A stretch of 64,000 nt of DNA, from positions 9,483-73,482 of the IMG/VR virus record IMGVR_UViG_3300043666_000001. One strand, 5' to 3'. Below are positions 28,490 to 42,166 of the stretch, piece after piece; positions within the stretch are counted from its first letter, which is position 1, and every line of letters starts with the position of its first letter. This stretch comes from a virus (Duplodnaviria; Caudoviricetes). Both the position numbers and the translations under genes were made by a program. The notes below the pieces were generated by a model, which was given only the letters and a program-made list of their open reading frames with translations, was not told where the DNA came from and searched no databases.

Positions 28490-30234
28490 TTACTCCCCAC
28501 TTTGGGTTTTGGTTTATTCTTTGCTTTGACTGTTTCAAGCTCAAGGGCATTTTTATGTCCCACTTGATTGAGCTCCAGGGCCCGGGAGTGCTCAGCTTGG
28601 GCACCCATCTCAGTAGAGGTGTGTAGCTGTTTAGCCTCATCCTCTTTTTGCTGCTTGAGCTCCTCAAGGTAGTCATCTATATTCTCAATCATGAGAATGC
28701 CCTTCAGCATCTTGACAGCGACCTTGTCAGTTAATAGTCCAATGCCCCTCAAGGCGATGACACTGTCAACAAGGGCTTTCTCCTCCTCAGGGTCTGGAGA
28801 CTGATACTCCCCCCAAGAGAACTCAAATGGCGGAGAATTCCAGTTCCACTTTTTGCCCATCTCCTCAATGAGTGCCTTGGCCTCAGTTATGCCAGGGAGC
28901 TCCATGTCAACAGAGATTGCAATCCTTAAAAGCATTGCATACACTGGAGCCATGCAGTTGTCTGCAAAGTTAGACCTTATCCGGTCACAACTAGCGAACA
29001 TTCTCCGCATGAGCTTTTTCATGCTACTAGCCGCCAACGCATTGCCCTTTGGCAACTTCTCAGGGTCAAGACTCACAACCCCAAACTTGGCCTCTAGCTT
29101 GCTGAGGATATCCTTGGTATTCTTGTCCAAAGCATCTAACGCATCACCTGGAAGAGTGTGCAGGGTTATCTTCGCGTCTGGGGATGTGTAGGTCCAAACC
29201 TCACCCGGTCCCTTTTTGCGCACCTTACCATTTCCACCTTGAGCCATTGACACATAGCCACCTTTATGTGGCATGTTGGTCTCAGTTGGTGGGCCTCCAA
29301 GGACAGAGGATTGGTGAATGACCTTCGCGTTCCTGCCCTTTGCTTGAGGACCCTCTCCTGGGGAGACACCAGTCTCTGTCCATTGTGGGTCTCCACTGTA
29401 CAACGCAGCACGATGACGTTGAGATAAGCTAAAGTTCATAGCATCCACCTCATCCAGCTCATTGCGGTGGATTGCATAACCATCAACCCTCCCAGCAACA
29501 TTCCCCTTTTTCATGAAGGGATACCAGCGCACAGGGCAAAAACCAAGCCCATGGACCACTTCCTCCTCAATACTCCAGGTGTAGTCACCCACATCATTCC
29601 CAGCCTTTATCTCAACTGGGTTAAAGGTAATGTCCGCCTGGGCATCGATGATTCTCCGGAAGAGCATTGGAACAGCTTTCCAAACGTTTCTCTCCTTGAC
29701 CTCCTCAATGTAGCCGTACATAATCTCTAGAGAGAGACATTCACCGTTTTTCTTGAGCTTGGGCAAGCACCACTCTGCTGGGATTGTCTCAACAAAGAGA
29801 TTCTCATCCCTCACACCACACAGGAAAACCCCTGTGCTACACCCCATAGCCTCCTCTAAAACCTCGGCAAAGTGAGTCTTGAGGTTAGCCTCAGTCTCAA
29901 TGGCAGAGAGGAGTTTATCAATCTCCGTTGACTCACTCTCCTCAACTGTCTCTGTATCATCACCCCATGCAGACCTTGCACTTATATCAGGGTAACGTTC
30001 CTCACCTAGGATAAGGTCAACCTTTTGATTTATCGCATCCTCTACTACAGTGTAGACAACACATGGTTGTCGCTCCCATAGTGGGACATCTGCGCTAAAC
30101 CAACTTGGCCTCCCGTCATATTGTGTGCCATCAACATACTTCCTGAGCTTAGCGATTGCTTTAGCTCTAGCGGAGGTCTGTTGATTTATCAACTCTACAG
30201 CCTGAGAATAATTTTGAATGGAATTATCGTGCAT
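28486..30234 (-). CDS. portal protein
   Basis: 582 aa directly after terL; coiled-coil C-terminus. Confidence 0.8.
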   Translation of the reverse strand: MHDNSIQNYSQAVELINQQTSARAKAIAKLRKYVDGTQYDGRPSWFSADVPLWERQPCVVYTVVEDAINQKVDLILGEERYPDISARSAWGDDTETVEESESTEIDKLLSAIETEANLKTHFAEVLEEAMGCSTGVFLCGVRDENLFVETIPAEWCLPKLKKNGECLSLEIMYGYIEEVKERNVWKAVPMLFRRIIDAQADITFNPVEIKAGNDVGDYTWSIEEEVVHGLGFCPVRWYPFMKKGNVAGRVDGYAIHRNELDEVDAMNFSLSQRHRAALYSGDPQWTETGVSPGEGPQAKGRNAKVIHQSSVLGGPPTETNMPHKGGYVSMAQGGNGKVRKKGPGEVWTYTSPDAKITLHTLPGDALDALDKNTKDILSKLEAKFGVVSLDPEKLPKGNALAASSMKKLMRRMFASCDRIRSNFADNCMAPVYAMLLRIAISVDMELPGITEAKALIEEMGKKWNWNSPPFEFSWGEYQSPDPEEEKALVDSVIALRGIGLLTDKVAVKMLKGILMIENIDDYLEELKQQKEDEAKQLHTSTEMGAQAEHSRALELNQVGHKNALELETVKAKNKPKPKVGSK

Positions 30235-30263
30235 TGTTTATTCTCATAGACTGGTTGACAACC

Positions 30264-31709
30264 CTAGTCATCATCCTCATCATAATGATCTGAGGCAAAA
30301 TCCTCTGTGACTGTCTTGGTAGAGTAAATTCCACCAAACACATGGTAGATTGCATATCTCAATGCATCTTGACAGTGGTTGTTCTTATCCTCAATCTCAT
30401 CAAGGATAAGCTCTTTATTCTTTGGGTCTCTCTTGCGACGATACATCCCCATCTCCCTAATAAGATTAGGACATTCTGGGGAGACATACATGTGTGGTGA
30501 TTTCCTACCACTTGGGCTGGGTTTGAGAGATAGCATTGTTGCTACAACAGGTACACCCTCCTCAATTTTATGAGTGGCATGGACTATGCCTATCTGTGCC
30601 TGCTTCTCATATTCAGCGATTTGACTTGGACCACTGCTATCCGCGTACCAACGAACATAACCCCTGAACTCATCAGCCCATTCCTTGACAACCATCGCTA
30701 TATCATTGTAGGTAGTGTGAGATTTGCAGTATTCACGGATGACATGAACCACAGCATCCCTCCCATATCCACTTACACCCATAAGCAACAACACAGCTGG
30801 GTCCTCCCAACCATGGTCCATGCCAACCAAAAAACTGTGGAATGGCAAGAATGGTGCCCTGATATGCACATCCTCATTAAACATGGGGTACACTAACCCC
30901 TCTGCACTGTCAAAGTCACACATCCACTCACGTGCAAAAACACTTGGCAGAGTTTTGCGCTTGACCCTTGCAAGATACCGTGGGTCAACCAACTTTGGTG
31001 CATCATATGCAGTGGCATGAAAGCTGAAGTGAGATGAGGTCATGTCCTTTATCTCCTCCTCACTCAAGCCACCCTCATCATGCTGGCGCCAATAGGACTC
31101 ACTTGGCCAAAGCTTTGCAGCCTTGTACAATAGCCCATATCTACCACGTCGTGGTGTGCCACCTATGATGGTTATGCGCAAGCTCCTGGGCTCACTGAAC
31201 CATGGCTGTGTGACAGACTCAACAATCTCAGGGTCAACATCATCAGCCTCATCCACAAACACCACGTCGCATCTTATGCCACGTGCATTGTCCGCAACAT
31301 CTGCACTGACAAACTGTATCCAACTACCACCAGGGAAAGAAACACGCCACTCCGTCTTATTTACCACCCCACCTAGAAATTTCCACTTACCCTCCAGCTC
31401 TGCTACCAGCAGCTGAGAATGGACTTTCTTGGCTTGTACAAGTGTAGGCATGAGTACGACTATGCGCACCCCTGTCTCATCAGTGTCTTGTCTTGCTTTC
31501 CAATCCCATTGATAGACAAGCAAGTAGCATACCAGTCTGGTAAACCAACTCTTTCCAATCCCACGCCCCCAAGGGATGCAAACTGTGTTCCCTGGCTGTA
31601 TGTGTTGGTGTGCCAGTTGTTGGGCATAGCACTTGCTAAGGTCAATATCCATGAGCCGTAAAATCCGTGTTTTTCCAGTGTGGCCAGGGGAATGTGCAGC
31701 ATTGAACAT
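30264..31709 (-). CDS. terL: terminase large subunit
   Basis: Walker A WGRGIGKS, Walker B VVFVDEAD, nuclease GMDHGWED and NHCQDALRY. Confidence 0.95.
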   Translation of the reverse strand: MFNAAHSPGHTGKTRILRLMDIDLSKCYAQQLAHQHIQPGNTVCIPWGRGIGKSWFTRLVCYLLVYQWDWKARQDTDETGVRIVVLMPTLVQAKKVHSQLLVAELEGKWKFLGGVVNKTEWRVSFPGGSWIQFVSADVADNARGIRCDVVFVDEADDVDPEIVESVTQPWFSEPRSLRITIIGGTPRRGRYGLLYKAAKLWPSESYWRQHDEGGLSEEEIKDMTSSHFSFHATAYDAPKLVDPRYLARVKRKTLPSVFAREWMCDFDSAEGLVYPMFNEDVHIRAPFLPFHSFLVGMDHGWEDPAVLLLMGVSGYGRDAVVHVIREYCKSHTTYNDIAMVVKEWADEFRGYVRWYADSSGPSQIAEYEKQAQIGIVHATHKIEEGVPVVATMLSLKPSPSGRKSPHMYVSPECPNLIREMGMYRRKRDPKNKELILDEIEDKNNHCQDALRYAIYHVFGGIYSTKTVTEDFASDHYDEDDD

Positions 31710-32011
31710 TCCCCAAGCCCAAGTCTTGGCACACTATGTGGCTAAACATGGACCAAGTTATATCAAGCACACCTGAGTTGACCAATCCCCACACTGTAGG
31801 ATTTACCTATTTGGTAAATGGCCATAGTGGCATAAGAGTTGCCACTTGCTATTTCTATACCACGGCAAGGGCTTGCGTGGATTTATGGAGTTGGGGAGAT
31901 AACACATGCGGATGTGAGACCTCTGCGCCACATCAATACTCATGCCATGAGATTAAGCATGGGTGTTGCATAGATGGAATTACCCATACTAGTACACATC
32001 TTGCCATTGTG

Positions 32012-32103
32012 GTCTACATAGTGGATTTGAACCACTGACCTGGGCAGCTATGTCATAAATCATGCCACAGGGCCCGACTCTGTCCAGCTGAGCTAATGCA
32101 AAC
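32012..32103 (-). tRNA. tRNA-His(GTG)-like gene with a 17-nt insertion in the anticodon loop
   Basis: G-1, acceptor TTTGCAT/ATGTAGA, C73, D-arm GCTC/GAGT, T-arm AGTGG-TTCAAAT-CCACT; loop CTGTGG+CATGATTTATGACATAG+C. Confidence 0.65.
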
Positions 32104-32107
32104 CTTG

Positions 32108-32178
32108 AGCCATATGTAGGTGCTGCCCCCACGTCAACCGAGTACAAATCGGTAGCTCTACTGTTGAGCTAATATGGC
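32108..32178 (-). tRNA. tRNA-Thr(TGT), atypical T-loop
   Basis: GCCATAT/ATATGGC; ACCGA-TTTGTAC-TCGGT; T-loop GGCAGCA. Confidence 0.75.
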
Positions 32179-32182
32179 ATGA

Positions 32183-32536
32183 TTATTTATTCTTTTCCTT
32201 TAACCTAACCCTCTGTGTAGGTTGGTATGCTCTTCTGTACTTCCTGTACTTCTCCCTACATAACTCACACTTGCACCCAATCTTCCCTCTTGACCCACCA
32301 CCGTGGCCTATCTCCCTATAGGCATAGTCATTGCAGATGCGTGTTTTGACTAGATGGCATGGCTTACATCTAAGTACACACTTTTCTAGCTCTGCTTCCC
32401 ACCTGGCCCTTGCCTGGGAGAAGAGTGTGCTCATATTGCACAGCTTATCCGATGAGATTACGTGGTCGAATTCCAGTGCATCAATTGTGCCACAATCAAC
32501 GCAAGAGTCTTCGCATGGTAGAGCAACGAATCTCAC
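32183..32536 (-). CDS. HNH endonuclease
   Basis: CVDCG...EFDHV...KCVLRCKPCH. Confidence 0.85.
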   Translation of the reverse strand: MRFVALPCEDSCVDCGTIDALEFDHVISSDKLCNMSTLFSQARARWEAELEKCVLRCKPCHLVKTRICNDYAYREIGHGGGSRGKIGCKCELCREKYRKYRRAYQPTQRVRLKEKNK

Positions 32537-32576
32537 CCATGAACCAAATTGGCATAGTCATTGACTATACCATTAG

Positions 32577-32647
32577 CAGACCAGGTAGGAATCGAACCTA
32601 CTCGATAGGGTTTTGGAGGCCCAACGGTCACCATGACTCTCTGGAAT
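32577..32647 (-). tRNA. degenerate tRNA-Trp(CCA)
   Basis: CTCCAAA loop and GTAGG-TTCGATT-CCTAC T-arm; mismatches in acceptor and anticodon stems. Confidence 0.6.
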
Positions 32648-32652
32648 ATAAG

Positions 32653-32985
32653 TTGCTAAGGCACTGCCCCTTAGCTGCCAGGCCTCATCCCAGGTTGACC
32701 GCAAGACTGAGGTTGAGTTACGGTCAGCTACGTTTCCACCCTTGCTTGCGCTGTAGCTACATGGATTGGCACATTCCTTGCCTGAGTAGTCAGACATAGT
32801 CAAGCGCCAGAGAGTATACTGGCATGTACCTTGCTATATTGCACCATTCAAACAGTGCCTATCTCCATGGATACCCCTGTAGGGGTTTCACCTACCTAGT
32901 GCACTAGTGTGCTTATCAACATCTATGCCATGTGTATGCCTTGCAAAGCCTATACCAATCAGTGAGTTGTTGACTGGCACAAGTT
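32653..32985 (-). ncRNA. candidate structured non-coding RNA(s), unidentified
   Basis: At least seven inverted repeats and no convincing ORF between tRNA-Pro and tRNA-Trp. Confidence 0.35.
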
Positions 32986-32990
32986 TCTCC

Positions 32991-33064
32991 GGTCTAGTTA
33001 GAGGGACTTGAACCCCCGTAGTCTTGCTCCCAAAGCAAGTGCCTTGCCACTCGGCCACAACTAG
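32991..33064 (-). tRNA. tRNA-Pro(TGG)
   Basis: CTAGTTG/TAACTAG; CTTGC-TTTGGGA-GCAAG; GGGGG-TTCAAGT-CCCTC. Confidence 0.85.
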
Positions 33065-33140
33065 ATATTTGGCTGGGTTAACCAGTAGCCTCACTCACCT
33101 GGAAGGGTTCTTGCATTCAAGGGCCCATAAGCAACTCTTG

Positions 33141-33214
33141 TGCCACAACCTGGATTCGAGCCAGGACTTTACAGGTTCTAGACCTGCTGCCTCTGCCAAT
33201 TGGGCTACTGTGGC
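33141..33214 (-). tRNA. tRNA-Leu(TAG)-like, short variable loop, C33 and C54 variants
   Basis: GCCACAG/TTGTGGC, A73; GCAGG-TCTAGAA-CCTGT; T-loop CTCGAAT. Confidence 0.7.
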
Positions 33215-33223
33215 AATAATCAG

Positions 33224-33293
33224 ACCATCCTAGTGGAATCGAACCACTGTTTGCTCATGCGAAGAGCTGTCCTAACCTCTAGACGAAAGATGG
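33224..33293 (-). tRNA. tRNA-Glu-type body with a shortened (15-nt) anticodon arm; isotype undetermined
   Basis: CCATCTT-TC-GTCTAGAGGTTAGGAC; arm GCTC-TTCGCAT-GAGC; intact T-arm. Confidence 0.55.
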
Positions 33294-33385
33294 TTGCAAT
33301 GCATAAGCCTTGCCAGTGAGATGTTTATATCGCCCCTCTCCACCATGAGGGCTTGGCCCACTGTTTGCTAGCTGCAATGGGTTAG

Positions 33386-33474
33386 TGGCATGTGTAGGAT
33401 TCGAACCTACTGAGCCTTTAGGCTAGTTGAAGCTTGCACCTCAACCGAGAACTCCATAGTCATATATCATGCCA
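33386..33474 (-). tRNA. class II (Ser-type) tRNA-like gene with a 10-nt anticodon loop containing GCA
   Basis: GGCATG/CATGCC; GTTGA-GGTGCAAGCT-TCAAC; variable arm AGCC-TAAA-GGCT; GTAGG-TTCGAAT-CCTAC; weak D-arm. Confidence 0.55.
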
Positions 33475-33478
33475 TATA

Positions 33479-33634
33479 TCAAGGCTTATTTGAGGGTAGA
33501 CCCTCAATGGCACCTAGCAAGCGCTGTACCAATTCCTGCTCACTAACTTTCATGCCAAAACCCTTGGTGATGTCATACACTGTAGCCCAACTTAGGATAA
33601 GTTGTAGCTCTTCCTGGCTAAGCTCAATCTTCAT
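33479..33634 (-). CDS. 51-aa hypothetical protein, not in ORF track
   Basis: Begins MKIELSQEELQLILSWATV; leaderless promoter upstream; precedes the tRNA array. Confidence 0.65.
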   Translation of the reverse strand: MKIELSQEELQLILSWATVYDITKGFGMKVSEQELVQRLLGAIEGLPSNKP

Positions 33635-33640
33635 ATCTAG

Positions 33641-33669
33641 ATGATAGCGAGGAGCACATGTCTGGTCAA
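33641..33669 (-). promoter_or_regulatory. sigma70-type promoter, leaderless; likely drives the tRNA array
   Basis: TTGACC-N17-TATCAT, ATG 6 nt downstream (33634). Confidence 0.7.
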
Positions 33670-33706
33670 GGAGAAAGTGCAGCCCATAACCATCTCCAAT
33701 CCCCCC

Positions 33707-33734
33707 TTGACATCTCCTGTGATGTGACTACCTT
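33707..33734 (+). promoter_or_regulatory. sigma70-type promoter
   Basis: TTGACA-N16-TACCTT, ATG 9 nt downstream (33744). Confidence 0.6.
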
Positions 33735-33743
33735 GCCAACCTC

Positions 33744-33935
33744 ATGAGCCAAACACCGCAGCAACAGGTTGACACACTTATTGCAACCATGCAAACCATA
33801 TACCATATGGCAAAGAAAGGCAGGATGGGGCACTACAGCAAGGAGCAAACCCTCTATGAGATTTGCTGCATCTCAGGCAGAGTCTGCAATGAATATGCTA
33901 ATGAAAAAGATAGACTTGACCCATTGACTCCCTAG
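33744..33935 (+). CDS. hypothetical protein
   Basis: Own promoter. Confidence 0.6.
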   Translation: MSQTPQQQVDTLIATMQTIYHMAKKGRMGHYSKEQTLYEICCISGRVCNEYANEKDRLDPLTP

Positions 33936-33951
33936 AGGGAGGTGCTATCTT
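33924..33951 (+). promoter_or_regulatory. sigma70-type promoter, leaderless
   Basis: TTGACT-N16-TATCTT, ATG 7 nt downstream (33959); spacer contains the inverted repeat CTCCCT-AG-AGGGAG. Confidence 0.7.
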
Positions 33952-33958
33952 ATTCTCT

Positions 33959-34153
33959 ATGAACCTCGCGTCGAGCAAGACCCTCAATCTCGTCATCGTC
34001 AACAGCCTTGGCATGACTATCTCCAGCATCCTATCCAGCCAGCTTCCCCTCACCAAGGAAGAGATGATTGAGATGGCAGACAAGGCTTGTGCCAATGGCT
34101 TCCAGGCCAAGGTGTGGGACCTGGATGAGCTGGACCCCATCTACAGCTGCTAA
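33959..34153 (+). CDS. hypothetical protein
   Basis: Own promoter. Confidence 0.65.
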   Translation: MNLASSKTLNLVIVNSLGMTISSILSSQLPLTKEEMIEMADKACANGFQAKVWDLDELDPIYSC

Positions 34154-34668
34154 GCCTTACTGGGCTCCTTAGGGGGCCCTTTCTCCCCCTCTGGGGGTGG
34201 GTTGGCATAAATCAACTTCACCTCCATTGGCACCCTATTTGCCTTCTCCTCAACTGTCAATTTCAACTCAGCCCCACTGTAACGACCATATAGCTCAGTT
34301 GCCTTTAAAGCACTAGCGTAATCCGGTAAGCCTGTAATCTTACTTGGCGTGGTCATTGCTTGATAGAGGATGTGCTTCACGGTTGAGGCTAGCTCACTAC
34401 GTAACGCGTCTAAATCCTCAGGGGGTGTTGCTAGGCGCCTGGAGGCCTCAGCAGACTCCTTGAGCAAACTCTCCTCCCCTATAGCCCATACCCTCATAAG
34501 GGCCCTAATGGTCATCCTAGAGCGATAGCGACCACTTGCCATCAAATCCGCGATGTAGTTAACCCTATCAGCCTTGTTCGCCTTAGGGGGTGCATCTGTA
34601 TATGGTGCAATATCCGCGCCATTATACTCAGATGTGACTAAGTCACGATGTGGCTTGGCTTTTGCCAT
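34150..34668 (-). CDS. putative terminase small subunit
   Basis: Helical N-terminus and ALKATELYGRYSG motif, co-oriented upstream of terL; start moved to ATG 34668. Confidence 0.5.
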   Translation of the reverse strand: MAKAKPHRDLVTSEYNGADIAPYTDAPPKANKADRVNYIADLMASGRYRSRMTIRALMRVWAIGEESLLKESAEASRRLATPPEDLDALRSELASTVKHILYQAMTTPSKITGLPDYASALKATELYGRYSGAELKLTVEEKANRVPMEVKLIYANPPPEGEKGPPKEPSKA

Positions 34669-34723
34669 GATATCTCTTTTGCGCGTGAAAGTACGTGTGG
34701 TTAGTGGGGTGGGGAGAGCCAGA

Positions 34724-34758
34724 GGGGAACCTAAAGGGGAGGGGGAACCTAAAGGGGA
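34724..34758. repeat. tandem duplication GGGGAACCTAAAGGGGA x2
   Basis: Exact 17-nt copies at 34724-34740 and 34742-34758. Confidence 0.9.
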
Positions 34759-34975
34759 AAATAGGGGGATAGCAACTCTCACGCCTCTCTCCCCCCAAGA
34801 ACAAGGGCATGCAATGTGGCACACTTCGTGAAGCAAGATAAACTCTGCAAGGCCCATGCCTAAATTGAGAACATGGGTCAGAATGCCGCGCAGTGACATC
34901 ACCCTCTATAAGGAGGAGGAACAAGGGTCCCTCTTGGCAAGCCCCAGGCAAAATCGAAAAAGATAGATTTAGACC

Positions 34976-35003
34976 TTGCACATCTTGGTAGATGGTTTAT
35001 CTT
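34976..35003 (+). promoter_or_regulatory. sigma70-type promoter, leaderless
   Basis: TTGCAC-N16-TATCTT, ATG 7 nt downstream (35011); TGGTAGA in spacer. Confidence 0.65.
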
Positions 35004-35010
35004 ATCTCTT

Positions 35011-35304
35011 ATGAACCTCGTCGCAAACAAGTCCTACCGAGTTCTCTCCACTGAACTTCACGTCAACACGTTGGCGCAACTGGCGAACAGGGCTGACAAT
35101 CGATTGGCAGCGAAGGAGTTGATGGCACGAGTTGTGCAGCACATGGGATTTCGTCGTGTGATGAGTGTCAAGGGGTTCATCAAGACTGCCCAAAAAAGGG
35201 GGTGGTCGCGTGAAGCAGCGGTAATTGCGGTTGATTTTGCCTCAATGTACAAGACCGAGGAGGAATTCAGCGTCGAGTTTGGCAAGATTCACCACATCAG
35301 CTGA
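35011..35304 (+). CDS. hypothetical protein
   Basis: Own promoter and downstream hairpin. Confidence 0.65.
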   Translation: MNLVANKSYRVLSTELHVNTLAQLANRADNRLAAKELMARVVQHMGFRRVMSVKGFIKTAQKRGWSREAAVIAVDFASMYKTEEEFSVEFGKIHHIS

Positions 35305-35326
35305 GACTCAAATCAAAAAAGATAGC

Positions 35327-35364
35327 AAGGGGAGGTTGACAGCCTCCCTTTTCACATCTATCTT
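35327..35364 (+). terminator. terminator hairpin whose loop is the -35 box of the next promoter
   Basis: AGGGGAGG-TTGACAG-CCTCCCTT-TT; TTGACA-N17-TATCTT. Confidence 0.65.
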
Positions 35365-35391
35365 TATTTGAGTCACCAAGGAGGCACGACA

Positions 35392-35565
35392 ATGGAACTG
35401 CAATTCGCAATCATCTCTGCATCAGGCATGTTCTTTTCCCGCGTTGATGGATGGATTGAGTCTTACTGCTTTGCTGATGTGTTTGGCACAATGTCTTCTG
35501 CTCAGGCAGTGATGGATGAGTTGCAACTCTCAGGCCAGATTGACCTTGTTGCAGTCTATCTTTAG
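35392..35565 (+). CDS. hypothetical protein
   Basis: AAGGAGG RBS before ATG 35392. Confidence 0.65.
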   Translation: MELQFAIISASGMFFSRVDGWIESYCFADVFGTMSSAQAVMDELQLSGQIDLVAVYL

Positions 35566-35568
35566 GAC

Positions 35569-35596
35569 TTGACATCTACCAATCTAGACATAGGAT
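35569..35596 (+). promoter_or_regulatory. sigma70-type promoter, leaderless
   Basis: TTGACA-N16-TAGGAT, ATG 6 nt downstream (35603); TCTACCA in spacer. Confidence 0.7.
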
Positions 35597-35602
35597 ATAG
35601 AT

Positions 35603-35761
35603 ATGAATTCGCTAGGTGATTTAGTTAGGGCTCACAACGAGGCTATGGTTCAGGCATATATCAGTGAGGCCAAAAATCAATCTATCCAAACCCAGAACAA
35701 GAAATGGGCCAAGGTTTTTAAGTTGGCTGATGCTGTCAAGGCGATGGGGGGTGCGTTTTGA
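35603..35761 (+). CDS. 52-aa hypothetical protein, not in ORF track
   Basis: Begins MNSLGDLVRAHNEAMVQAYI; stop overlaps the next start. Confidence 0.65.
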   Translation: MNSLGDLVRAHNEAMVQAYISEAKNQSIQTQNKKWAKVFKLADAVKAMGGAF

Positions 35762-35961
35762 AAAACCAGACCGATGAGGTGTTGGCACAATTGATGAATC
35801 TTGTGAAATCCCTAGATATGGACCGTCTGGAGTTGTGCATTCGAGCTGATGGCAGGATATATGCCAGCATTGAAACAAGCCGTGGTTACGTGAAACATTC
35901 CATCAATTGTGAAATTGATGAGGCACACAAGTTGCTGGACATCAATAATTACAAGGCATAA
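35758..35961 (+). CDS. hypothetical protein
   Basis: TTGA overlap with the upstream gene. Confidence 0.55.
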   Translation: MKNQTDEVLAQLMNLVKSLDMDRLELCIRADGRIYASIETSRGYVKHSINCEIDEAHKLLDINNYKA

Positions 35962-35980
35962 ACCAATTTGGTTGCAAATT

Positions 35981-36018
35981 AGGGGCTCCACACTCAGGTG
36001 TTGGGCCCTTTTGCTTTT
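35981..36018 (+). terminator. intrinsic terminator
   Basis: GGGGCTCCACAC-TCAG-GTGTTGGGCCC then TTTTGCTTTT. Confidence 0.7.
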
Positions 36019-36022
36019 GCCC

Positions 36023-36050
36023 TTGACATCTCAATTGGTAGATGTAGGTT
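36023..36050 (+). promoter_or_regulatory. sigma70-type promoter, leaderless
   Basis: TTGACA-N16-TAGGTT, ATG 7 nt downstream (36058); TGGTAGA in spacer. Confidence 0.7.
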
Positions 36051-36057
36051 AAGTGAC

Positions 36058-36276
36058 ATGAGCGCAACGAAAAAAGGGATGAATCGCCAGGATGATGGCA
36101 GGTTTCTTGCCCACTTTGACACAATCTGCAAATGTGGCAGGAGCATGGGAATCCACTCGGCACATCGGCCGTTTGAGTTTGATGACCTGGAGATGGAAGA
36201 GTTGCCTGAGACTCATCCCAACTACGGCAACAGATGTGCCGGGTTCAAAAAAGCTAAGCCACAATCGACCACTTGA
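36058..36276 (+). CDS. small Cys/His protein
   Basis: CKCGRSMGIH...C; start moved to the leaderless ATG. Confidence 0.65.
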   Translation: MSATKKGMNRQDDGRFLAHFDTICKCGRSMGIHSAHRPFEFDDLEMEELPETHPNYGNRCAGFKKAKPQSTT

Positions 36277-36301
36277 CATCATCACATCTACCAATTAGAT
36301 T
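36273..36301 (+). promoter_or_regulatory. sigma70-type promoter, leaderless
   Basis: TTGACA-N17-TAGATT, ATG 6 nt downstream (36308); TCTACCA in spacer. Confidence 0.75.
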
Positions 36302-36307
36302 CTAGAT

Positions 36308-36508
36308 ATGAACAGCAATCCCCGGGCGATGTCGTTTCAGTACACCCAAGTCTTCACTAAATCTCATCGTGGCATATTCAATGCAGGCGATAAGCTGGTC
36401 AATCAAATCAGCTTTCCTTCACTTACGCTGTTCACGATGTGGGTGCAGGAGATTAACGCGGCGCACAAGGCACGCAAGTTGCCTTATTACATATCCATTG
36501 ATTGCTAA
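36308..36508 (+). CDS. hypothetical protein
   Basis: Own promoter. Confidence 0.65.
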   Translation: MNSNPRAMSFQYTQVFTKSHRGIFNAGDKLVNQISFPSLTLFTMWVQEINAAHKARKLPYYISIDC

Positions 36509-36804
36509 GCCTTCAACCTGACAAGAAACAGGCCATCAACCCAAATCCTACCCTCCCCCACCAACCCCTCCAGTGCAGATAACACATCTGGTGCTGAGAG
36601 GGGTTTTCCCTTTGAGCTAAACAGGTGGTCCAGGGAAGATTTGAGGTAGTTAACCCCATAACCTGGGAGTCTATCCAAAATAGCCGCTCTTGCCTCCACA
36701 ACGCCTATTAGCGAGGTTTGCTCGTGGTAGTGATAGACTACCCCACTTGGGGACTCCTCAACTATTACAGGCCGTCTAGGGACGAGGGTGGGGGGCTTTT
36801 TCAT
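36505..36804 (-). CDS. hypothetical protein (possible winged-helix)
   Basis: DVLSALEGLVGEGRIWV C-terminus. Confidence 0.5.
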   Translation of the reverse strand: MKKPPTLVPRRPVIVEESPSGVVYHYHEQTSLIGVVEARAAILDRLPGYGVNYLKSSLDHLFSSKGKPLSAPDVLSALEGLVGEGRIWVDGLFLVRLKA

Positions 36805-36813
36805 CTAGCAAGC

Positions 36814-37053
36814 TTAACCATCATCGCGACAGAGGGCAAGTAGGTGACTCATGGCAACTCCAGGTAGGGTCGCGTCATCATCAAGGATATCCTCATCCGT
36901 GAGTTCTGCCTCAACCTGAGGTTGAGGTTCAAACCCCTGCTGCCACTTCTCATGCCGCTCTGAGTTTGGGCTAGAATCGGGGATGGGAGTCAATCTATGT
37001 GCCAAGGCTAGATAATTGAGGTAATCGGGGTGATTGTTGCTGCTAACACTCAT
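36814..37053 (-). CDS. acidic hypothetical protein
   Basis: TTGATT-N17-TAGATT promoter (37088-37060) lies 6 nt upstream of ATG 37053. Confidence 0.55.
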   Translation of the reverse strand: MSVSSNNHPDYLNYLALAHRLTPIPDSSPNSERHEKWQQGFEPQPQVEAELTDEDILDDDATLPGVAMSHLLALCRDDG

Positions 37054-37243
37054 CATCTAAATCTATGACATGGGTGATGTCAAATCAACGTCTATTAGTT
37101 AACTCCCAATAGACAGACTCAAATGTCTCACCAGTGACAATCTCTTGACACCAAGGTGCAGTTGCAATGAACATGCCATATTGGTCAATCTCCACATGAA
37201 TCTGAAGAGAAAGCACCACCGTCGATTTATCTACCAATGTACC

Positions 37244-37271
37244 TTGACTCCAATCAAATGATAGCTAATAT
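37244..37271 (+). promoter_or_regulatory. sigma70-type promoter, leaderless
   Basis: TTGACT-N16-TAATAT, ATG 7 nt downstream (37279); TCTACCA just upstream. Confidence 0.7.
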
Positions 37272-37278
37272 CTAGTCT

Positions 37279-37434
37279 ATGAACAGCGCAGGCAACAACA
37301 ATACTGTCTCTTTTACCTCCTTGCTCAACCAAGTTCAGGAGGCAAAGAAGGCTGCAAAGGTGAAGGATGTTGTGCGCACTTACCACACCATGAATGGTGT
37401 TGGCATTGTTCTTGATTTTAGCAGCTGCAAATAA
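37279..37434 (+). CDS. 51-aa hypothetical protein, not in ORF track
   Basis: Begins MNSAGNNNTVSFTSLLNQVQEAKKAAK. Confidence 0.65.
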   Translation: MNSAGNNNTVSFTSLLNQVQEAKKAAKVKDVVRTYHTMNGVGIVLDFSSCK

Positions 37435-37450
37435 TATCTACCAACTCAAG

Positions 37451-37478
37451 TTGACAACAGTCAAAAGATAGATAGGAT
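37451..37478 (+). promoter_or_regulatory. sigma70-type promoter, leaderless
   Basis: TTGACA-N16-TAGGAT, ATG 7 nt downstream (37486); TCTACCA just upstream. Confidence 0.7.
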
Positions 37479-37485
37479 ATATCAC

Positions 37486-37848
37486 ATGAACCTCGCGGCC
37501 AAAATCACTCTCTTTGTTGTTGCGCTCTCTGCCCTCACTACCAATGTGGCTGAGGCAAAGGGCAAACACCATGCCAAAAAGGCTGAGGTGAGCCAAGAGA
37601 AGGAGTCCTATTGCAGCATTGAGGATGATGGGCACACGATCTTCTACGTGTGTGAAGACCACCCTTGGTTGCCCAAGGAGACGGCCGCGGACAGTGACTG
37701 CGCTGGCAAGGTCTCTCGTGGTGAGACTAGGGATGGGACCTGGAAGATGACCTGGGATGTGGTTTGCAAGGATGGTTGGAACCACAAGGGTCACATCGAT
37801 GGCAAAGGAGTGGGCAAGGCTGATGGCAGCCCACTTTGGAGCAAGTGA
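37486..37848 (+). CDS. secreted/periplasmic protein with four Cys
   Basis: Signal peptide MNLAAKITLFVVALSALTTNVAEA. Confidence 0.7.
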   Translation: MNLAAKITLFVVALSALTTNVAEAKGKHHAKKAEVSQEKESYCSIEDDGHTIFYVCEDHPWLPKETAADSDCAGKVSRGETRDGTWKMTWDVVCKDGWNHKGHIDGKGVGKADGSPLWSK

Positions 37849-37865
37849 GTCAAGTAGGTACGTTA

Positions 37866-37920
37866 ATATCCCCCACCTGAAGGAACAGTGGCCACTGTGG
37901 CGACTTAGGTGTGGGGATAT
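37866..37920. terminator. long hairpin between convergent genes
   Basis: ATATCCCCCACCTGA...TTAGGTGTGGGGATAT with inner CAGTG-GC-CACTG. Confidence 0.65.
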
Positions 37921-37954
37921 GGGCTTAGCTACTTAAACTAAGATGGTTGCAGTT

Positions 37955-38704
37955 TCAGATAATTGGGATTGTTGGCACAACTTTGCCCGCGAAGTACGCC
38001 GCGAGTGCAGCTTCTGCTTTCTGCGTACGACGGTTCGCGTTGACAAGCTCATTCGCCTGGATGAGGTCACGTGTTTTGACGCCCTCAGCAGTGATGAGCT
38101 CCTTGGTCTCACAGCAGCACTCGGCCGCGAAGGCAAGTGCAGCGGCTTGATTTTGAGTGGCCAACAGAATCGCAGCAGATGCATTGGTTTGCGCTTGAAT
38201 ATTGGTCTGGTACCAATTCTTGTCAGCCTGAACACCCAACGCGTTGAAGTTTTTTGCAGCCTCAAGCAAGGCTCGACCTTCAACCTGATATGCCAAAGCG
38301 GCTGAGTCTTTAAACCCAACAACCGTAGCGGTAGCCGCGTCACTTAGCTGCTTTTGGATAAAGGAGAACTCATCTGAGCCCTTCTCAATCCCATGACGCA
38401 CGGAGCTAAGAACCTTATCAGTCGACTCACCCACCGCATCCTGAGTCTTACAGGCAGCAAGTGCAGCAGCCGTGCCAGTCTTCTCCACAACGGACACCAC
38501 ATCATATCGAGAATCCTTGATAGAACCCTCAACCGATTTGAAATCCTCCGCGGCGACTCGAAAGCCCGCGGCTTGCTCACGAGCAATCAACTCGTCAAGG
38601 TGATTGCGGTGAGATTTATGTCCGTTGTTGTCATTCGCGTATGCATGAACTCGGTGGAGCGGCGAGGTCACGTCATTTGTGTCAGAGATTACGCTTGTAG
38701 TCAT
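37955..38704 (-). CDS. uncharacterised helical viral protein with AECCCETK motif
   Basis: Ala-rich helical protein with C-terminal AAECCCETKELITAEGVKTRDLI. Confidence 0.7.
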   Translation of the reverse strand: MTTSVISDTNDVTSPLHRVHAYANDNNGHKSHRNHLDELIAREQAAGFRVAAEDFKSVEGSIKDSRYDVVSVVEKTGTAAALAACKTQDAVGESTDKVLSSVRHGIEKGSDEFSFIQKQLSDAATATVVGFKDSAALAYQVEGRALLEAAKNFNALGVQADKNWYQTNIQAQTNASAAILLATQNQAAALAFAAECCCETKELITAEGVKTRDLIQANELVNANRRTQKAEAALAAYFAGKVVPTIPII

Positions 38705-38802
38705 ATCCTGTACCTATTTGTGATGAGAGTGTAATGCAATTAAGCTAAGCACTTTCATCACTGGCGAGTACAGTGACTCTTTATGTATTTCTATAAATGT
38801 AA

Positions 38803-38925
38803 CTACTTTTTGCCTTTGGCCTTATTCTTGCTGGAGTTCATTTGGTTATAGGGGTTCTCGGCACGTGGGTCTGGTAACTTCACACCAGGCTTGGGTGCTG
38901 GTTTGGGGGCTTTCTTGGACGCCAT
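38803..38925 (-). CDS. 40-aa Lys/Pro-rich basic peptide, not in ORF track
   Basis: AGGTGA RBS; MASKKAPKPAPKPGVKLPDPRAENPYNQMNSSKNKAKGKK. Confidence 0.55.
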   Translation of the reverse strand: MASKKAPKPAPKPGVKLPDPRAENPYNQMNSSKNKAKGKK

Positions 38926-39038
38926 ATGGTTTCACCTATTCACTTTCTGTAAAGGAGCAGCAGAGTCTAGCTGAGGGCGACTGGATGCTTCCCCGTCGCT
39001 TCCGGTTTATCCCATGTCAGTGGAAACACGCATGAGCC

Positions 39039-39323
39039 TCAAGTCTTTGGTATGTTATTTGTCCACCCCAATAGCCACTGCTTTGAGGGGATACAGCCGA
39101 ATATGCGCAAATGTAGGTTGACCTCATACTCAAGGCTATCTACAAGCTTGTCACGAGATGTGCCACTGGGACAACCGGTATACTCAACCAATTGAGTGAA
39201 CACATCCTCATCCTCAATGGCAAGGTCAATGATTGTGCCTGCAAGTCTAGGCTTGACACCGTCTTGAATGAGAGATTGGTGTGCCTTTTGCAGCTTGCCA
39301 ACCAATGTGTCAAAGTTGCTCAT
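39039..39323 (-). CDS. hypothetical protein
   Basis: ATGA overlap. Confidence 0.6.
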   Translation of the reverse strand: MSNFDTLVGKLQKAHQSLIQDGVKPRLAGTIIDLAIEDEDVFTQLVEYTGCPSGTSRDKLVDSLEYEVNLHLRIFGCIPSKQWLLGWTNNIPKT

Positions 39324-39772
39324 TTGATGTATTTTACCGCGCCAACCTTGGATTTTAACGCGTCAAGGCAGGCGTAGCTACAGAATCGTTGTGAGCCATT
39401 ATAGGCAGTCATGGAACGACTGCCATCATCGGCAAACTCTGGGCAATATCGACCGCAATAAAGACAATGGTGGTGAGCTGGTTCTGTTGGCTTGGTTTCT
39501 GCAAGAGGGGATGGGTTTCTCGATGCACCAAGTATGCCATATCCACCGATATCCTCGTAGCTGTCCTCAAGCTGCCCATTCGCGATGCGAAAGAGTTTAT
39601 CCACAATTCGGGTGACACACAACATATCAGTGTATTGCTCAGGCTTCACACCATCTGGGTATAGCACTTGCAATATCAGACCAGCCTTGTTAAAGCTGTC
39701 CCCATATTGGGCATTCTTTTTGCTAACCAGCTCGCCTAGCTTTTTGGCGGTCTCTTTGAATTTATCAATCAT
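39320..39772 (-). CDS. DUF1599-like (nucleotide-modification-associated) protein with C-terminal TRASH-like zinc finger
   Basis: KKNAQYGDSF, DKLFRI, SYEDIGGY; CLYCG...FCSYAC. Confidence 0.7.
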   Translation of the reverse strand: MIDKFKETAKKLGELVSKKNAQYGDSFNKAGLILQVLYPDGVKPEQYTDMLCVTRIVDKLFRIANGQLEDSYEDIGGYGILGASRNPSPLAETKPTEPAHHHCLYCGRYCPEFADDGSRSMTAYNGSQRFCSYACLDALKSKVGAVKYIK

Positions 39773-39795
39773 AGAGAGAAGTTAGCCACACTCAC

Positions 39796-40032
39796 TCATT
39801 CTGTCAAGCCATCATCATCGCAGTCACATGCAAACGCATGATTGACATCAAGATAATCCTCAACCCCAAGGCGATGCAGCGCAAGTGTCCAGCTCAATCG
39901 TTGAATCAGGCTCACATCTTGCAAATCAGGATGAGACTTAAGTGACTCAATCATCGCAGATTCAAAGTATGTGCCAGCAACATCGCTCAATTCTTGCATA
40001 GTCGCCCTAGCCCAGCAAATAGCAAACCACAA
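39796..40032 (-). CDS. hypothetical protein
   Basis: ORF in operon; start uncertain. Confidence 0.5.
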   Translation of the reverse strand: MWFAICWARATMQELSDVAGTYFESAMIESLKSHPDLQDVSLIQRLSWTLALHRLGVEDYLDVNHAFACDCDDDGLTE

Positions 40033-40197
40033 TGAAAGTTAAACAGAGACCAAACCCTATAGCTAACGAGCTCATCTGTTGTTAATTTTGCCTGGTAGAC
40101 TATTTGCATAGTAAAACTTTAGACCAGCTGGTTTAGTCCATAACCGAAGAGGCATACATTAAAGTACCTGGTCTATTTAGCTTAAATAGCTTACCTC

Positions 40198-40485
40198 TCA
40201 TTTAGCGCGGAGCGTGACGCGCATGATGGTGTTATCCACCTCAAACTCCTCAACAATTGTCAAGTTATCTAGGATCTTTAGCCCCAATTCATGCCACTTT
40301 CCAACCTTTTGATTGAACATCCCCAGCATGTCAATGCGCCACCTTCCCCTGTAATCTTTCTTGCCTGGGACTTTCTTATTCTTGAGCCACTTGCGCCAGG
40401 TTTGTGGGCAAATTCCAGTGTACATCCAAGCCTGGTCGATGGTGCAATATTGAGCTTGGTTGAGTCTACTTTTTCGCTTGGTCAT
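40198..40485 (-). CDS. MerR-like/excisionase-type HTH protein
   Basis: TIDQAWMYTGICPQTWRKWLKNKKVPG...GRWRI; start moved to 40485. Confidence 0.7.
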   Translation of the reverse strand: MTKRKSRLNQAQYCTIDQAWMYTGICPQTWRKWLKNKKVPGKKDYRGRWRIDMLGMFNQKVGKWHELGLKILDNLTIVEEFEVDNTIMRVTLRAK

Positions 40486-40987
40486 TGAACCTCTTGAGGA
40501 ATGAGTCGGTTGCAAGATATGCATCGGCATATGCCTCTTTGCTTGCCTGTAGAGAGCCTGTAGAGCCCTCGGGATACGCGGAAGGATTGATGCTATGTAG
40601 TCTTCGTGAAACCGTTGTTAAACCCCTTGCAGGGTCCCTAACACCGAACTCCTGATAATCTCGAAGGATGCAACTTACCAACTCTCCCATCTTCCAGTGC
40701 CCACCATTGCGCAAGGCATTGTCACGGACTTTGCTAAGCGCAGGGTAAACTCTGCCCCATTTGCCATCAACCGGTGGACCATCCTCTCTCAACTTAGCAG
40801 CAGCACGGAACAGCTCTGCTTGGTGCAAGTTGCCCTCAATCTTGCCAATTGGGTCACTATCAAACTGATAGCTCTTCTCAGATTCAAGCTCTATGCCTTG
40901 CAGTTGATTCCCCAGCGTGCTTGGTGTGTGGGTGTAGGAGGTGGTGAAGTGGTCAATAAGCTCAAGCAACTCTATGGTCATGACCAT
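40466..40987 (-). CDS. hypothetical protein
   Basis: Long ORF in operon. Confidence 0.6.
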   Translation of the reverse strand: MVMTIELLELIDHFTTSYTHTPSTLGNQLQGIELESEKSYQFDSDPIGKIEGNLHQAELFRAAAKLREDGPPVDGKWGRVYPALSKVRDNALRNGGHWKMGELVSCILRDYQEFGVRDPARGLTTVSRRLHSINPSAYPEGSTGSLQASKEAYADAYLATDSFLKRFNDQAKK

Positions 40988-41035
40988 ATATTGTCATAAC
41001 CATACATGTAGTCAAGGGTTATTTTAACAACAGGC

Positions 41036-41161
41036 TCATTCCTTGCTATCCAATTTATGATAGCAATCCTTCTCATTCCAAATGATGGGGAATATATAGG
41101 AGGAGATGAGGAATGAGATGGTAAAACTAATGGCACAGAATATGGCGAGGTGTTTATGCAT
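41036..41161 (-). CDS. 41-aa single-TM peptide, not in ORF track
   Basis: MHKHLAIFCAISFTISFLISSYIFPIIWNEKDCYHKLDSKE; starts 3 nt after the vWA stop. Confidence 0.45.
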   Translation of the reverse strand: MHKHLAIFCAISFTISFLISSYIFPIIWNEKDCYHKLDSKE

Positions 41162-41164
41162 GGG

Positions 41165-42166
41165 CTAAGTGAACAGTAGCACACTAGTGCCAGGAACCAG
41201 CTTGCGATTTACACTTGTGCTCTGAATGAAGATGTTGAATTCAGGGTGAGATGTGGGGGAAACCTTGACCTCTTGATTGGGAAGCTGGAGCATTGCTCGC
41301 GTTTGAGGTCCCGTGAATACCTCACCTGTATTCTTGGACACAAGGGCGACTTGCTTACTTGCTTGCACCTTTTCAGGTTTAGTCAACTGATAATATGCGC
41401 TGCCGATTTGATAGGATTTGCCGGTGGTCACCTCGATGAAAGTGCTAATCATGCCCTCTTTGGATACATGAAGCAAAAAGTGTTTGCCTACATGCTTATC
41501 CAGCACCTTAACCACATTCTTGGCATTAATCTTACTGATATCTAAGTTGAAGATATTTCGGCTACCTCGCACACCCCGTGACCGAGCGGCCATAAAGTTG
41601 TCAGTGGCTTGCCGAATGGTCTCTCCAACCCCCTCAATCCCCTGCTTTGCATTGATATCCCACACCTGGATATTATCTTTGGGAAACCCAAAGCGTTTCG
41701 CCTCATGCACCCCAGTGATGTTTGGCACAAATACTGCCACGGTCCAATGGTCAGGAAGCTTATTCAATCTTTGGGACAGCTCAATTGGCTTGGTTTTGGA
41801 GTCGTTATCTTCCCCATCTGTCAAGACGTATACCAAAAAAGCATGCTCCCCATACAGTTCAGGAGTCTTTGACAAATCATCTAGAGATTGCAATGTAGCA
41901 TCAATCAATGCCGTCGTGCCATCAACTCGGTAGAGGTTGCTTATAGATGGAAGTCGAAGCACATCCTTGTCATAAACAAGGCAGGTTGTCTTGTTGGCGA
42001 AAGAGTAAATTGTGACCCTTGTTTCTTGGTCAAGCTCTTGACTGCGTTGAGCAATATGTTTGACAAGATTGTCAGCAACTTTGACAACCTCCTGTGTCTT
42101 GCTTCCCATAGAAGCAGATGCATCCAAAACAAGGGCGATGTGGTTGATGTAGTTATTGACTTGCAT
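41165..42166 (-). CDS. vWA-domain protein
   Basis: MIDAS elements VLDASASM, TALIDA, VLTDGEDN. Confidence 0.85.
   Translation of the reverse strand: MQVNNYINHIALVLDASASMGSKTQEVVKVADNLVKHIAQRSQELDQETRVTIYSFANKTTCLVYDKDVLRLPSISNLYRVDGTTALIDATLQSLDDLSKTPELYGEHAFLVYVLTDGEDNDSKTKPIELSQRLNKLPDHWTVAVFVPNITGVHEAKRFGFPKDNIQVWDINAKQGIEGVGETIRQATDNFMAARSRGVRGSRNIFNLDISKINAKNVVKVLDKHVGKHFLLHVSKEGMISTFIEVTTGKSYQIGSAYYQLTKPEKVQASKQVALVSKNTGEVFTGPQTRAMLQLPNQEVKVSPTSHPEFNIFIQSTSVNRKLVPGTSVLLFT

What the first reader, a model, noticed from the sequence alone, without database searches (positions are those of the whole stretch)
32012..32103. tRNA-His with a 17-nt insertion at the canonical 37/38 intron position
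Seen: His identity elements G-1 and C73 with intact acceptor, D and T arms. The loop reads CT-GTG-G[CATGATTTATGACATAG]C; a GC repeat makes the exact boundary ambiguous by one or two nt. The insert pairs back on the anticodon (CTGTG/CATAG), but it is not a strict bulge-helix-bulge. Established: short protein-spliced introns at 37/38 are archaeal/eukaryotic, and bacterial tRNA introns are normally large self-splicing ones. Inference: a phage intron excised by an unknown nuclease and sealed by the phage RNA ligase, an anticodon-masked decoy, or simple decay.
Basis: partly seen in the sequence, partly recalled or inferred. Interest (0 to 1): 0.7.

Follow-up and report, generated by a model that had tools for sequence, protein, structure and literature searches.

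The report
Sigma-54 site inside phage tRNA gene
The 17 extra bases in this phage's histidine tRNA gene are real but probably not an intron: they complete a DNA docking site of the bacterial sigma-54 type, one of dozens that crowd the phage's packaging-gene region, so the tRNA gene was most likely disabled by, or given over to, a DNA signal.

Summary
A minus-strand tRNA-His gene (G-1, C73, intact arms) has a 24-nt anticodon loop, 17 nt too long. The intron reading is poorly supported. The 37/38 register has no bulge-helix-bulge. A formal one at 38/39 lies 15 kcal/mol above the best fold. The complete 73-kb myophage genome has an RNA ligase, but no splicing endonuclease or T4-type kinase was found. 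Instead, the insert completes a TGGCAYR-N4-TTGC (sigma-54, -24/-12) type site on both strands. This is the genome's strongest spaced motif: 59 near-consensus copies against 1 control, 25 of them in 3.4 kb around the tRNA cluster between the terminase genes. A random insert scores as well with P 0.002-0.035. Best reading: a DNA site for host sigma-54 RNA polymerase inside a tRNA gene that no longer translates. Binding, host and expression are untested, and no orthologous gene was found. This scan had already noted sigma-54 arrays in other phages, but its notes showed none inside a tRNA gene. Phage tRNA introns are already in print (Lak phages).

The parts
32012..32103 (-). tRNA-His gene, G-1 (32103) to C73 (32012), with a 24-nt anticodon loop
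32048..32064 (-). 17-nt insert, 37/38 register (32049-32065 and 32047-32063 give the same product)
32051..32067 (-). Sigma-54-type site completed by the insert. The -24 GG is tRNA positions 36-37; the -12 element is the ATGA variant. 2 mismatches to the strict consensus
32051..32067 (+). Weaker second site on the opposite strand at the same position (1 of 5 such double sites); 2 mismatches, one of them in the -24 GG
32096..32112 (-). Further site spanning the tRNA-Thr 3' end and the His 5' acceptor strand; both G.U wobbles of the His acceptor lie in its -12 element
   Evidence: 12.9 bits, 2.6 if the strand were fully Watson-Crick
32108..32178 (-). tRNA-Thr(UGU) with atypical D and T loops
   Evidence: Rfam 47.7 bits
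32183..32536 (-). Free-standing HNH endonuclease gene inside the tRNA cluster
   Evidence: PHROG 4234, E 2.5e-22
32576..32648 (-). Weak tRNA-Trp(CCA)-like gene
   Evidence: ARAGORN only at lowered threshold; Rfam 20 bits, below cut-off
32991..33064 (-). tRNA-Pro(UGG), canonical
33140..33214 (-). tRNA-Leu(UAG); motif sites overlap both ends
33223..33293 (-). Atypical tRNA-like gene (CGC anticodon, no G3:U70)
33386..33474 (-). Degenerate tRNA-like gene. Its 5' end holds the motif site (33458-33474) closest in sequence to the His-loop site (1 mismatch in 16)
30264..31709 (-). Terminase large subunit, about 300 nt downstream of the His gene
   Evidence: PHROG 2, E 1.3e-35
34150..34671 (-). Probable terminase small subunit (viral helix-turn-helix-like protein; assignment inferred from position and features)
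28500..46000 (.). Cloud of sigma-54-type sites on both strands, densest at 30.5-36.5 kb, median near the terS-like gene
49018..50151 (-). T4 Rnl1-like RNA ligase
   Evidence: PF09511 E 1.9e-11, PHROG 562 E 7.5e-38

Best explanation
The gene descends from a normal tRNA-His(GUG). Its anticodon loop naturally contains TGGC, the -24 half of a sigma-54 site. A small DNA event (inverted duplication by template switching, or copying from a neighbouring site) added 17 bases that supply the spacer and the -12 half, making a two-faced site. The insert works as DNA. It is one of 59-105 docking sites (by strict pattern or by matrix) that the phage keeps on both strands around its terminase genes, where host sigma-54 RNA polymerase would sit as a stable closed complex without transcribing. 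The phage would use this to coat or sequester rather than to start mRNAs. The RNA is probably not spliced and does not decode. SHOWN: tRNA anatomy, the motif, its enrichment and clustering, and the insert's match.
For: An unbiased dyad scan ranks GGCA-N7-TGC first of 229,376 tests (65 seen, 15.6 expected, P 9e-21). The strict pattern with at most 1 mismatch has 59 hits against 1 for the reversed control, 25 of them in window 31600-35000. The effect is spacing-specific: 28 hits at spacer 5 against 1-6 at seven other spacers. Sites in coding DNA exceed a synonymous-codon shuffle: 21 against a mean of 1.1 in 14 cluster ORFs. Orientation in the cluster is 33 minus to 36 plus, unlike ordinary promoters. 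The loop scores 15.8 bits with the insert and 4.8 without. With a matrix built only from other phages, a random 17-mer does as well with P 0.0017-0.0027, and on both strands with P 2.5e-4. The ATGA variant is enriched on its own without this site (P 3e-4). The register matches ChIP-mapped E. coli sigma-54 sites, most of which appear transcriptionally inactive (PMC4591121 passages). Unrelated phage contigs carry dense two-orientation arrays: 21 of 80 examined loci have 7 or more sites, and 6 of 16 annotated loci have a terminase gene nearby. No splicing enzyme was found. Other tRNA genes of the phage are also degenerate.
Against: The His site is a second-rank one: 2 mismatches to the strict consensus, plain-mismatch P only 0.035, and ATGA makes up 8 of 390 sites in the other-phage loci. 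In this site-dense region any 24-nt window holds an equally good site 2-4% of the time. The own-genome matrix was seeded with a pattern shaped partly by this site. The 4-bp pair-back is not explained by the motif (0.060 given a double site, 0.063 overall). In close strains 3 of 20 listed SNPs fall in sites, 2 at core positions, so single sites are not strictly kept. 164 terminase-related loci show no enrichment (15 hits at spacer 5 against 10-35). The host is unknown, and no enhancer-binding protein or sigma-54 is encoded by the phage. The tRNA body is still well formed. No orthologue without the insert was found.
Confidence: 0.5

Rival explanations
1. Neutral damage: a one-off small insertion or inverted duplication in a dispensable tRNA gene; the motif match is incidental in a motif-rich region.
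For: Several tRNA genes are degenerate, including some in the second cluster that has no sites. The insert was found in no other record. Local-density null 0.02-0.04; strict-mismatch P 0.035. An inverted duplication of the loop would give both the pair-back and a palindromic site in one step (7 of 9 bases match, read from the sequence).
Against: Independent-matrix P 0.002-0.003 and both-strand P 2.5e-4. A second site uses the acceptor strand of the same gene.
Confidence: 0.17
2. Same DNA-site role, but the reader is a phage protein (most plausibly the helix-turn-helix terminase small subunit or a repressor) rather than host sigma-54.
For: The cloud is centred on the terS-like gene (median genome position 43,957), is orientation-free and partly palindromic (5 double sites). 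It is absent from distant terminase relatives.
Against: The matrix reproduces the sigma-54 -24/-12 register and is mostly asymmetric. The same motif forms arrays in phages with little or no protein similarity to this one.
Confidence: 0.12
3. Unspliced tRNA-like decoy: the transcript is matured, charged through G-1:C73 and kept with its anticodon buried in a hairpin, tying up HisRS/EF-Tu or drawing a host anticodon nuclease.
For: Acceptor, D and T arms are intact and the anticodon is paired in the best fold. An acceptor microhelix with G-1 is enough for E. coli HisRS in vitro (PMC3245924 passage). Phage tRNAs often carry anticodon-loop changes (PMC10264068 passages).
Against: No conservation evidence, no similar His gene found, and it does not explain the DNA motif. 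The word 'insertion' does not occur in PMC10264068's main text.
Confidence: 0.09
4. True protein-spliced intron: two cuts remove 17 nt and the phage Rnl1 seals a working tRNA-His.
For: Length and position fit archaeal introns (16-44 nt; PMC3400036 passage). Excision gives a tRNA-His that ARAGORN accepts. A formal bulge-helix-bulge exists for the 38/39 register and its cuts would give the correct product (chance 0.024); the 31:39 mismatch frees U39 for it. Rnl1 is present. Lak phages have tRNA introns.
Against: That conformer is +3.1 against -12.1 kcal/mol; its closing and inner pairs have probabilities of about 0 and 1e-4. The 37/38 geometry fails. No endonuclease or end-healing kinase was found. 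The host is bacterial (peptidoglycan lysin).
Confidence: 0.08
5. The insert protects the locus from the neighbouring HNH homing endonuclease by breaking its target.
For: The HNH gene lies about 110 nt from the loop. T4 SegB, a GIY-YIG enzyme, sits in a tRNA cluster and recognises a tRNA T-arm motif (PMC2330249 abstract).
Against: Target unknown; different nuclease family; does not predict the motif.
Confidence: 0.04

Closest known systems
Bacterial sigma-54 (RpoN) -24/-12 sites, including silent intragenic ones (PMC4591121)
   Same: GG-N10-TGC register and TGGCAYR-N4-TTGC consensus; sites inside genes in both orientations.
   Different: Here they are in a phage, at up to 16 per 2 kb, overlapping tRNA genes, with no activator encoded; the His-loop copy has the ATGA variant; binding is untested.
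Lak megaphage tRNA introns (PMC6784885, Table S6)
   Same: [quoted passage not shown]
   Different: The Lak introns listed are 79-141 nt, some tRNA-like, and conserved between genomes. This insert is 17 nt, not tRNA-like, and seen once. The same table lists a 23-nt possible intron in another large phage, so short cases are not unprecedented.
Archaeal bulge-helix-bulge tRNA introns (PMC3400036)
   Same: Length and formal position; a paper-only BHB in the 38/39 register.
   Different: No stable BHB, no endonuclease, bacterial host.
Eukaryote-type short 37/38 introns of giant-virus tRNAs
   Same: 8-32-nt loop inserts are common in IMG/VR (34 of 80 loci examined).
   Different: Most of those are Tyr(GUA) or Lys(UUU) genes without encoded CCA, many on GVMAG contigs; that they use the host nuclear enzyme is my own knowledge. 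This is a bacterial myophage and the C32-intron pair fails.
Phage tRNA pseudogenes and atypical phage tRNAs
   Same: Intact arms with a non-decoding loop, among other degenerate tRNAs.
   Different: Here the lesion coincides with a statistically enriched DNA motif.

Membership tests
tRNA-His (bacterial type) | G-1 paired with discriminator C73 | tested here: met
tRNA-His (bacterial type) | Cloverleaf with acceptor, D and T arms and short variable loop | tested here: met
   the same D-loop type occurs in an intact viral tRNA-His, L213
tRNA-His (bacterial type) | GUG in a 7-nt loop on a 5-bp stem | tested here: not met
   Loop is 24 nt and 31:39 is mismatched; a 7-nt loop appears only after in-silico excision
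tRNA-His (bacterial type) | Expressed, matured and aminoacylated | not testable with these tools
   no RNA holder listed
Archaeal BHB intron | Length 16-44 nt | tested here: met
   17 nt; range from PMC3400036
Archaeal BHB intron | Bulge-helix-bulge at the splice sites | tested here: not met
   37/38 fails; the formal 38/39 motif is 15 kcal/mol above the best fold with closing pair probability about 0
Archaeal BHB intron | Splicing endonuclease available | tested here: not met
   PF01974: 0 matches in the complete genome, while 4 of 14 control genomes pass the cut-off; host bacterial
Eukaryotic TSEN-type intron | Pair between position 32 and the third-last intron base (criterion recalled) | tested here: not met
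   C32 faces U
Self-splicing group I tRNA intron | Ribozyme core of a few hundred bases (size recalled) | tested here: not met
   17 nt; no Rfam intron match
Lak-type phage tRNA intron | Long, partly tRNA-like insert conserved between genomes | tested here: not met
   17 nt, no T-loop; no second copy in IMG/VR; compared with Table S6
Sigma-54 binding site | -24 GG with TGGCAYR context | tested here: met
   full match on the minus strand; the plus-strand copy has G to T
Sigma-54 binding site | Exact 10-nt spacing between GG and the -12 element | tested here: met
   spacer-specific enrichment
Sigma-54 binding site | -12 element TTGC | tested here: inconclusive
   Reads ATGA (2 mismatches). The variant is enriched in this genome (P 3e-4 without this site) but rare in other-phage arrays (8 of 390)
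Sigma-54 binding site | Host encodes sigma-54 | tested here: inconclusive
   2 of 3 Polyangiaceae genomes holding terminase relatives have it; actual host unknown
Sigma-54 binding site | Bound by sigma-54 holoenzyme | not testable with these tools
   needs gel-shift or ChIP
Active sigma-54 promoter | Enhancer-binding activator and a downstream start site | tested here: inconclusive
   No PF00158 in the phage; a host activator could act; sites are not oriented with genes

The most novel reading that the evidence does not exclude
Dual use: the phage hides a host sigma-54 docking site inside a removable 17-nt tRNA intron. The DNA carries the site, and an unknown nuclease plus the phage Rnl1 excise it from the RNA through the 38/39 bulge-helix-bulge-like conformer, so a working tRNA-His is kept. 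This would be a protein-spliced short tRNA intron in a bacterial system, kept for its DNA sequence. (A less extreme reading, that the phage coats its packaging region with sigma-54 polymerase even at the cost of tRNA genes, I put at about 0.4.)
Probability: 0.07. Interest if true: 0.85.

Novelty: new variant of a known kind. Interest (0 to 1): 0.5.

Why it matters
It gives a testable, non-splicing explanation for a short 'intron' in a phage tRNA gene and warns that such inserts can be DNA signals. More widely, a phage that carries dozens of sigma-54 sites through its terminase and tRNA genes without encoding an activator points to a use of this host polymerase as a DNA-binding protein or as a target to soak up. 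In four literature searches no listed title or abstract start described phage sigma-54 arrays; I saw 25 of 366, 30 of 433, 0 of 0 and 30 of 38 results, so this is not proof of absence. A dispersed cloud in one complete genome makes the question directly testable with purified sigma-54 holoenzyme.

Tried and rejected
Orthologue search. No hit for the His D-arm plus loop pattern in IMG/VR. A looser pattern gave 40 loci: 8 normal His genes, 23 tRNA-Asn with nested inserts, 6 short extras, 3 unresolved, and none like this gene. The D-loop pattern gave 11 loci, all without an insert. Terminase-large relatives (1 GenBank region, 80 IMG/VR, 3 genome and 80 metagenome loci) reach 52% identity over long matches (one 35-residue match at 71%) and carry no His gene. 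The closest relatives (56-69% TerL, 65-82% TerS) exist only as proteins whose contigs could not be fetched. The TerS alignment found 1 distant locus (27%) in IMG/VR and none in genomes. Reads: no RNA holder listed. Three freshwater runs hold near-identical fragments, but no listed piece covers the loop and 23 pieces were not shown. Host: no spacer-like match in 401 genomes of the Polyangiaceae-bearing phylum; 8 of 9 weak hits are to tRNAs. The Tyr(GUA) reading was rejected: it fits one register, which removes exactly the 17-nt motif, but G-1:C73, the short variable loop and the G37-C38 loop fit His. The ORF beside Rnl1 (48004-49014) is not a recognisable kinase. No RpoN-box or GAFTGA motif in six frames. 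The plus-strand ORF 31736-32038 has no family hit. No cultured phage matched an example array. One search used coordinates shifted by two; its landmark labels and canonical-helix line are superseded.

Full report
Setting. The window lies in a complete 73,482-nt virus record with a 127-nt end repeat. It encodes tail sheath, baseplate, terminase, a DnaB-like helicase, a glucosaminidase lysin with a peptidoglycan-binding domain and a T4 Rnl1-like RNA ligase: a myophage of bacteria. No close cultured relative was found. Terminase relatives at 43-46% lie in 3 Polyangiaceae genome bins, but GC differs (47.6% against 66% for the one of these loci measured) and no spacer match was found in 401 sampled genomes, so the host is open.

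Observation. On the minus strand, 32103-32012 is a tRNA gene with G-1, a 7-pair acceptor (two G.U), C73, intact D and T arms and a short variable loop. G-1:C73 is the bacterial His identity element (PMC3245924 passages). The anticodon loop is 24 nt, and pair 31:39 is a C.U mismatch. Removing 17 nt in any of three registers gives the same His(GUG) loop; two other registers give Tyr(GUA). ARAGORN accepts the excised His form at default threshold. The probable source run shows the stretch in one contig without listed variants.

Intron test. At 37/38 the central helix has 3 of 4 pairs, and the closing, inner and C32-intron pairs fail. An exhaustive search found one formal bulge-helix-bulge, for the 38/39 register, whose cuts would give the correct product. 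A random insert gives this 2.4% of the time; the conformer is +3.1 against -12.1 kcal/mol, and its distinguishing pairs have probabilities of about 0 and 1e-4. Six-frame searches of the complete genome found no PF01974 endonuclease, PF13671 kinase or RtcB. T4 Rnl1 needs Pnkp-healed ends (PMC3400036 passages). Phage tRNA introns are in print: Lak phages have 79-141-nt ones, and the same table lists a 23-nt case in another phage (PMC6784885 passages and supplement Table S6, part 5 of file 3 plus a term search).

What the insert is. Searching the genome for look-alikes of the insert led to a motif, TGGCAYR-N4-WTGM. It occurs 28 times with the right spacing and 1-6 times with seven other spacings; Markov-simulated genomes give a mean of 4.75. 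An unbiased dyad scan puts it first of 229,376 tests. The strict form TGGCAYR-N4-TTGC, which I recall as the sigma-54 consensus and which matches in register the E. coli ChIP sites listed in PMC4591121 (passages), has 59 hits at up to 1 mismatch against 1 for the reversed control. Of these, 25 lie in 3.4 kb around the tRNA cluster, between the terminase large subunit and a terS-like gene. Cluster sites are 33 minus and 36 plus, and exceed a synonymous-codon shuffle 21 to 1.1 in 14 cluster ORFs and 17 to 2.7 in 64 others.

The His loop supplies the -24 TGGC from positions 35-38 and the insert supplies the rest. The score is 15.8 bits with the insert and 4.8 without, and a weaker site lies on the opposite strand. 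With a matrix from 406 sites of other phages the chance for a random insert is 0.0017-0.0027, both strands 2.5e-4. With the phage's own 59 strict sites it is 0.006-0.008, and by plain mismatch count 0.035. Allowing for local density, 2-4% of 24-nt windows hold an equally good site. The nearest relative of this site, 1 mismatch in 16, is 1.4 kb away at the 5' end of another degenerate tRNA-like gene; 6 of 105 sites have so close a neighbour. A further site uses the His 5' acceptor strand; whether its wobble pairs arose on the 5' or 3' strand cannot be told.

Against. The site has 2 mismatches to the strict consensus, and its ATGA form is 8 of 390 sites in other-phage loci. The 4-bp pair-back is not predicted by the motif. 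Of 20 SNPs listed in close strains, 3 fall in sites and 2 hit core positions. The 164 terminase-related loci show no enrichment. Degenerate tRNAs also occur in the second cluster, which has no sites. No orthologous His gene was found, so conservation is untested.

Wider picture. A tandem-motif scan of IMG/VR gave at least 126 hits. Of the 80 loci examined (selected to hold two sites), 21 have 7 or more, three of them from one contig. In the 16 densest inspected, many are arrays in both orientations between genes, and 6 of 16 have a terminase gene among the 69 selected ORFs I scanned. After reaching this reading I looked up the scan's notes: other phages with sigma-54 arrays were already recorded, one inside a terminase intein, and none listed lies in a tRNA gene. 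These notes are unchecked and not used as support.

Mechanism. Sigma-54 polymerase binds such sites without transcribing (PMC4591121). The phage encodes neither sigma-54 nor an activator, while 2 of 3 candidate host-family genomes encode sigma-54. I infer that the phage accumulates docking sites around its packaging region to be coated by, or to tie up, this holoenzyme, and that the His gene gained one at the cost of decoding. A phage-encoded reader, neutral damage, an unspliced decoy, true splicing and nuclease immunity remain rivals.

Verdict. Real feature; descended from tRNA-His but not a working member as encoded; not shown to be an intron; works most like a sigma-54 binding site. New variant of a known kind, interest 0.5. 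Other papers seen: PMC10264068 (passages), PMC2330249 (abstract). Paper searches were read as listings only. bioRxiv supplements were not consulted and could hold further phage tRNA intron tables.

Noticed in passing
window 28500-46000 (genome 38-55.5 kb): Genome-wide cloud of sigma-54-type sites on both strands, inside terminase, HNH, tRNA and small genes, centred near the terS-like gene; probably more interesting than the tRNA insert itself.
   Followed up: yes
L166-L204 (23 of 40 loci): Many viral tRNA-Asn(GUU) genes are split at 34/35 or 35/36 by 35-75-nt tRNA-like inserts (acceptor-like helix and T loop), resembling the Lak introns. Their start mimics a GUG anticodon.
   Followed up: partly
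L395:2642-2852, L410:5001-5210, L364:3441-3640, L344:4946-5262, L349:19-256, L354:5001-5168, L355:5001-5225, L414:5001-5244: Compact arrays of 7-11 near-perfect sigma-54 sites, 20-50 nt apart and mostly in alternating orientation, in unrelated phage contigs; several lie just upstream of terminase genes or at a contig end.
   Followed up: partly
L343:5242-8406 and L402:1825-7346: Single-orientation sigma-54 sites placed between successive small genes; in L343 they point against the genes.
   Followed up: no
genome 4132-4656 (outside the window, G000:C1): Second tRNA cluster: Leu(UAA), Ile(UAU) and a degenerate Asn/Tyr-like gene, with mismatched anticodon stems and no motif sites.
   Followed up: partly
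whole genome: Strong GATC avoidance (observed/expected 0.07) and CpG depletion (0.44).
   Followed up: no
window 32108-32178: tRNA-Thr(UGU) lacks the D-loop GG and has a non-standard T loop, yet all stems are perfect.
   Followed up: no
window 37955-38704: 249-aa ORF with no PHROG or Pfam hit, inside the motif cloud.
   Followed up: no
L195:1010-1067, L216:101-159, L282:101-176: Viral tRNA genes with 8-, 14- and 31-nt anticodon-loop extras that are not of the Tyr/Lys giant-virus type; virus type not checked.
   Followed up: no
L223, L225, L229 and about 20 similar loci: Recurrent viral tRNA-Ile(UAU) genes with a long variable arm.
   Followed up: no
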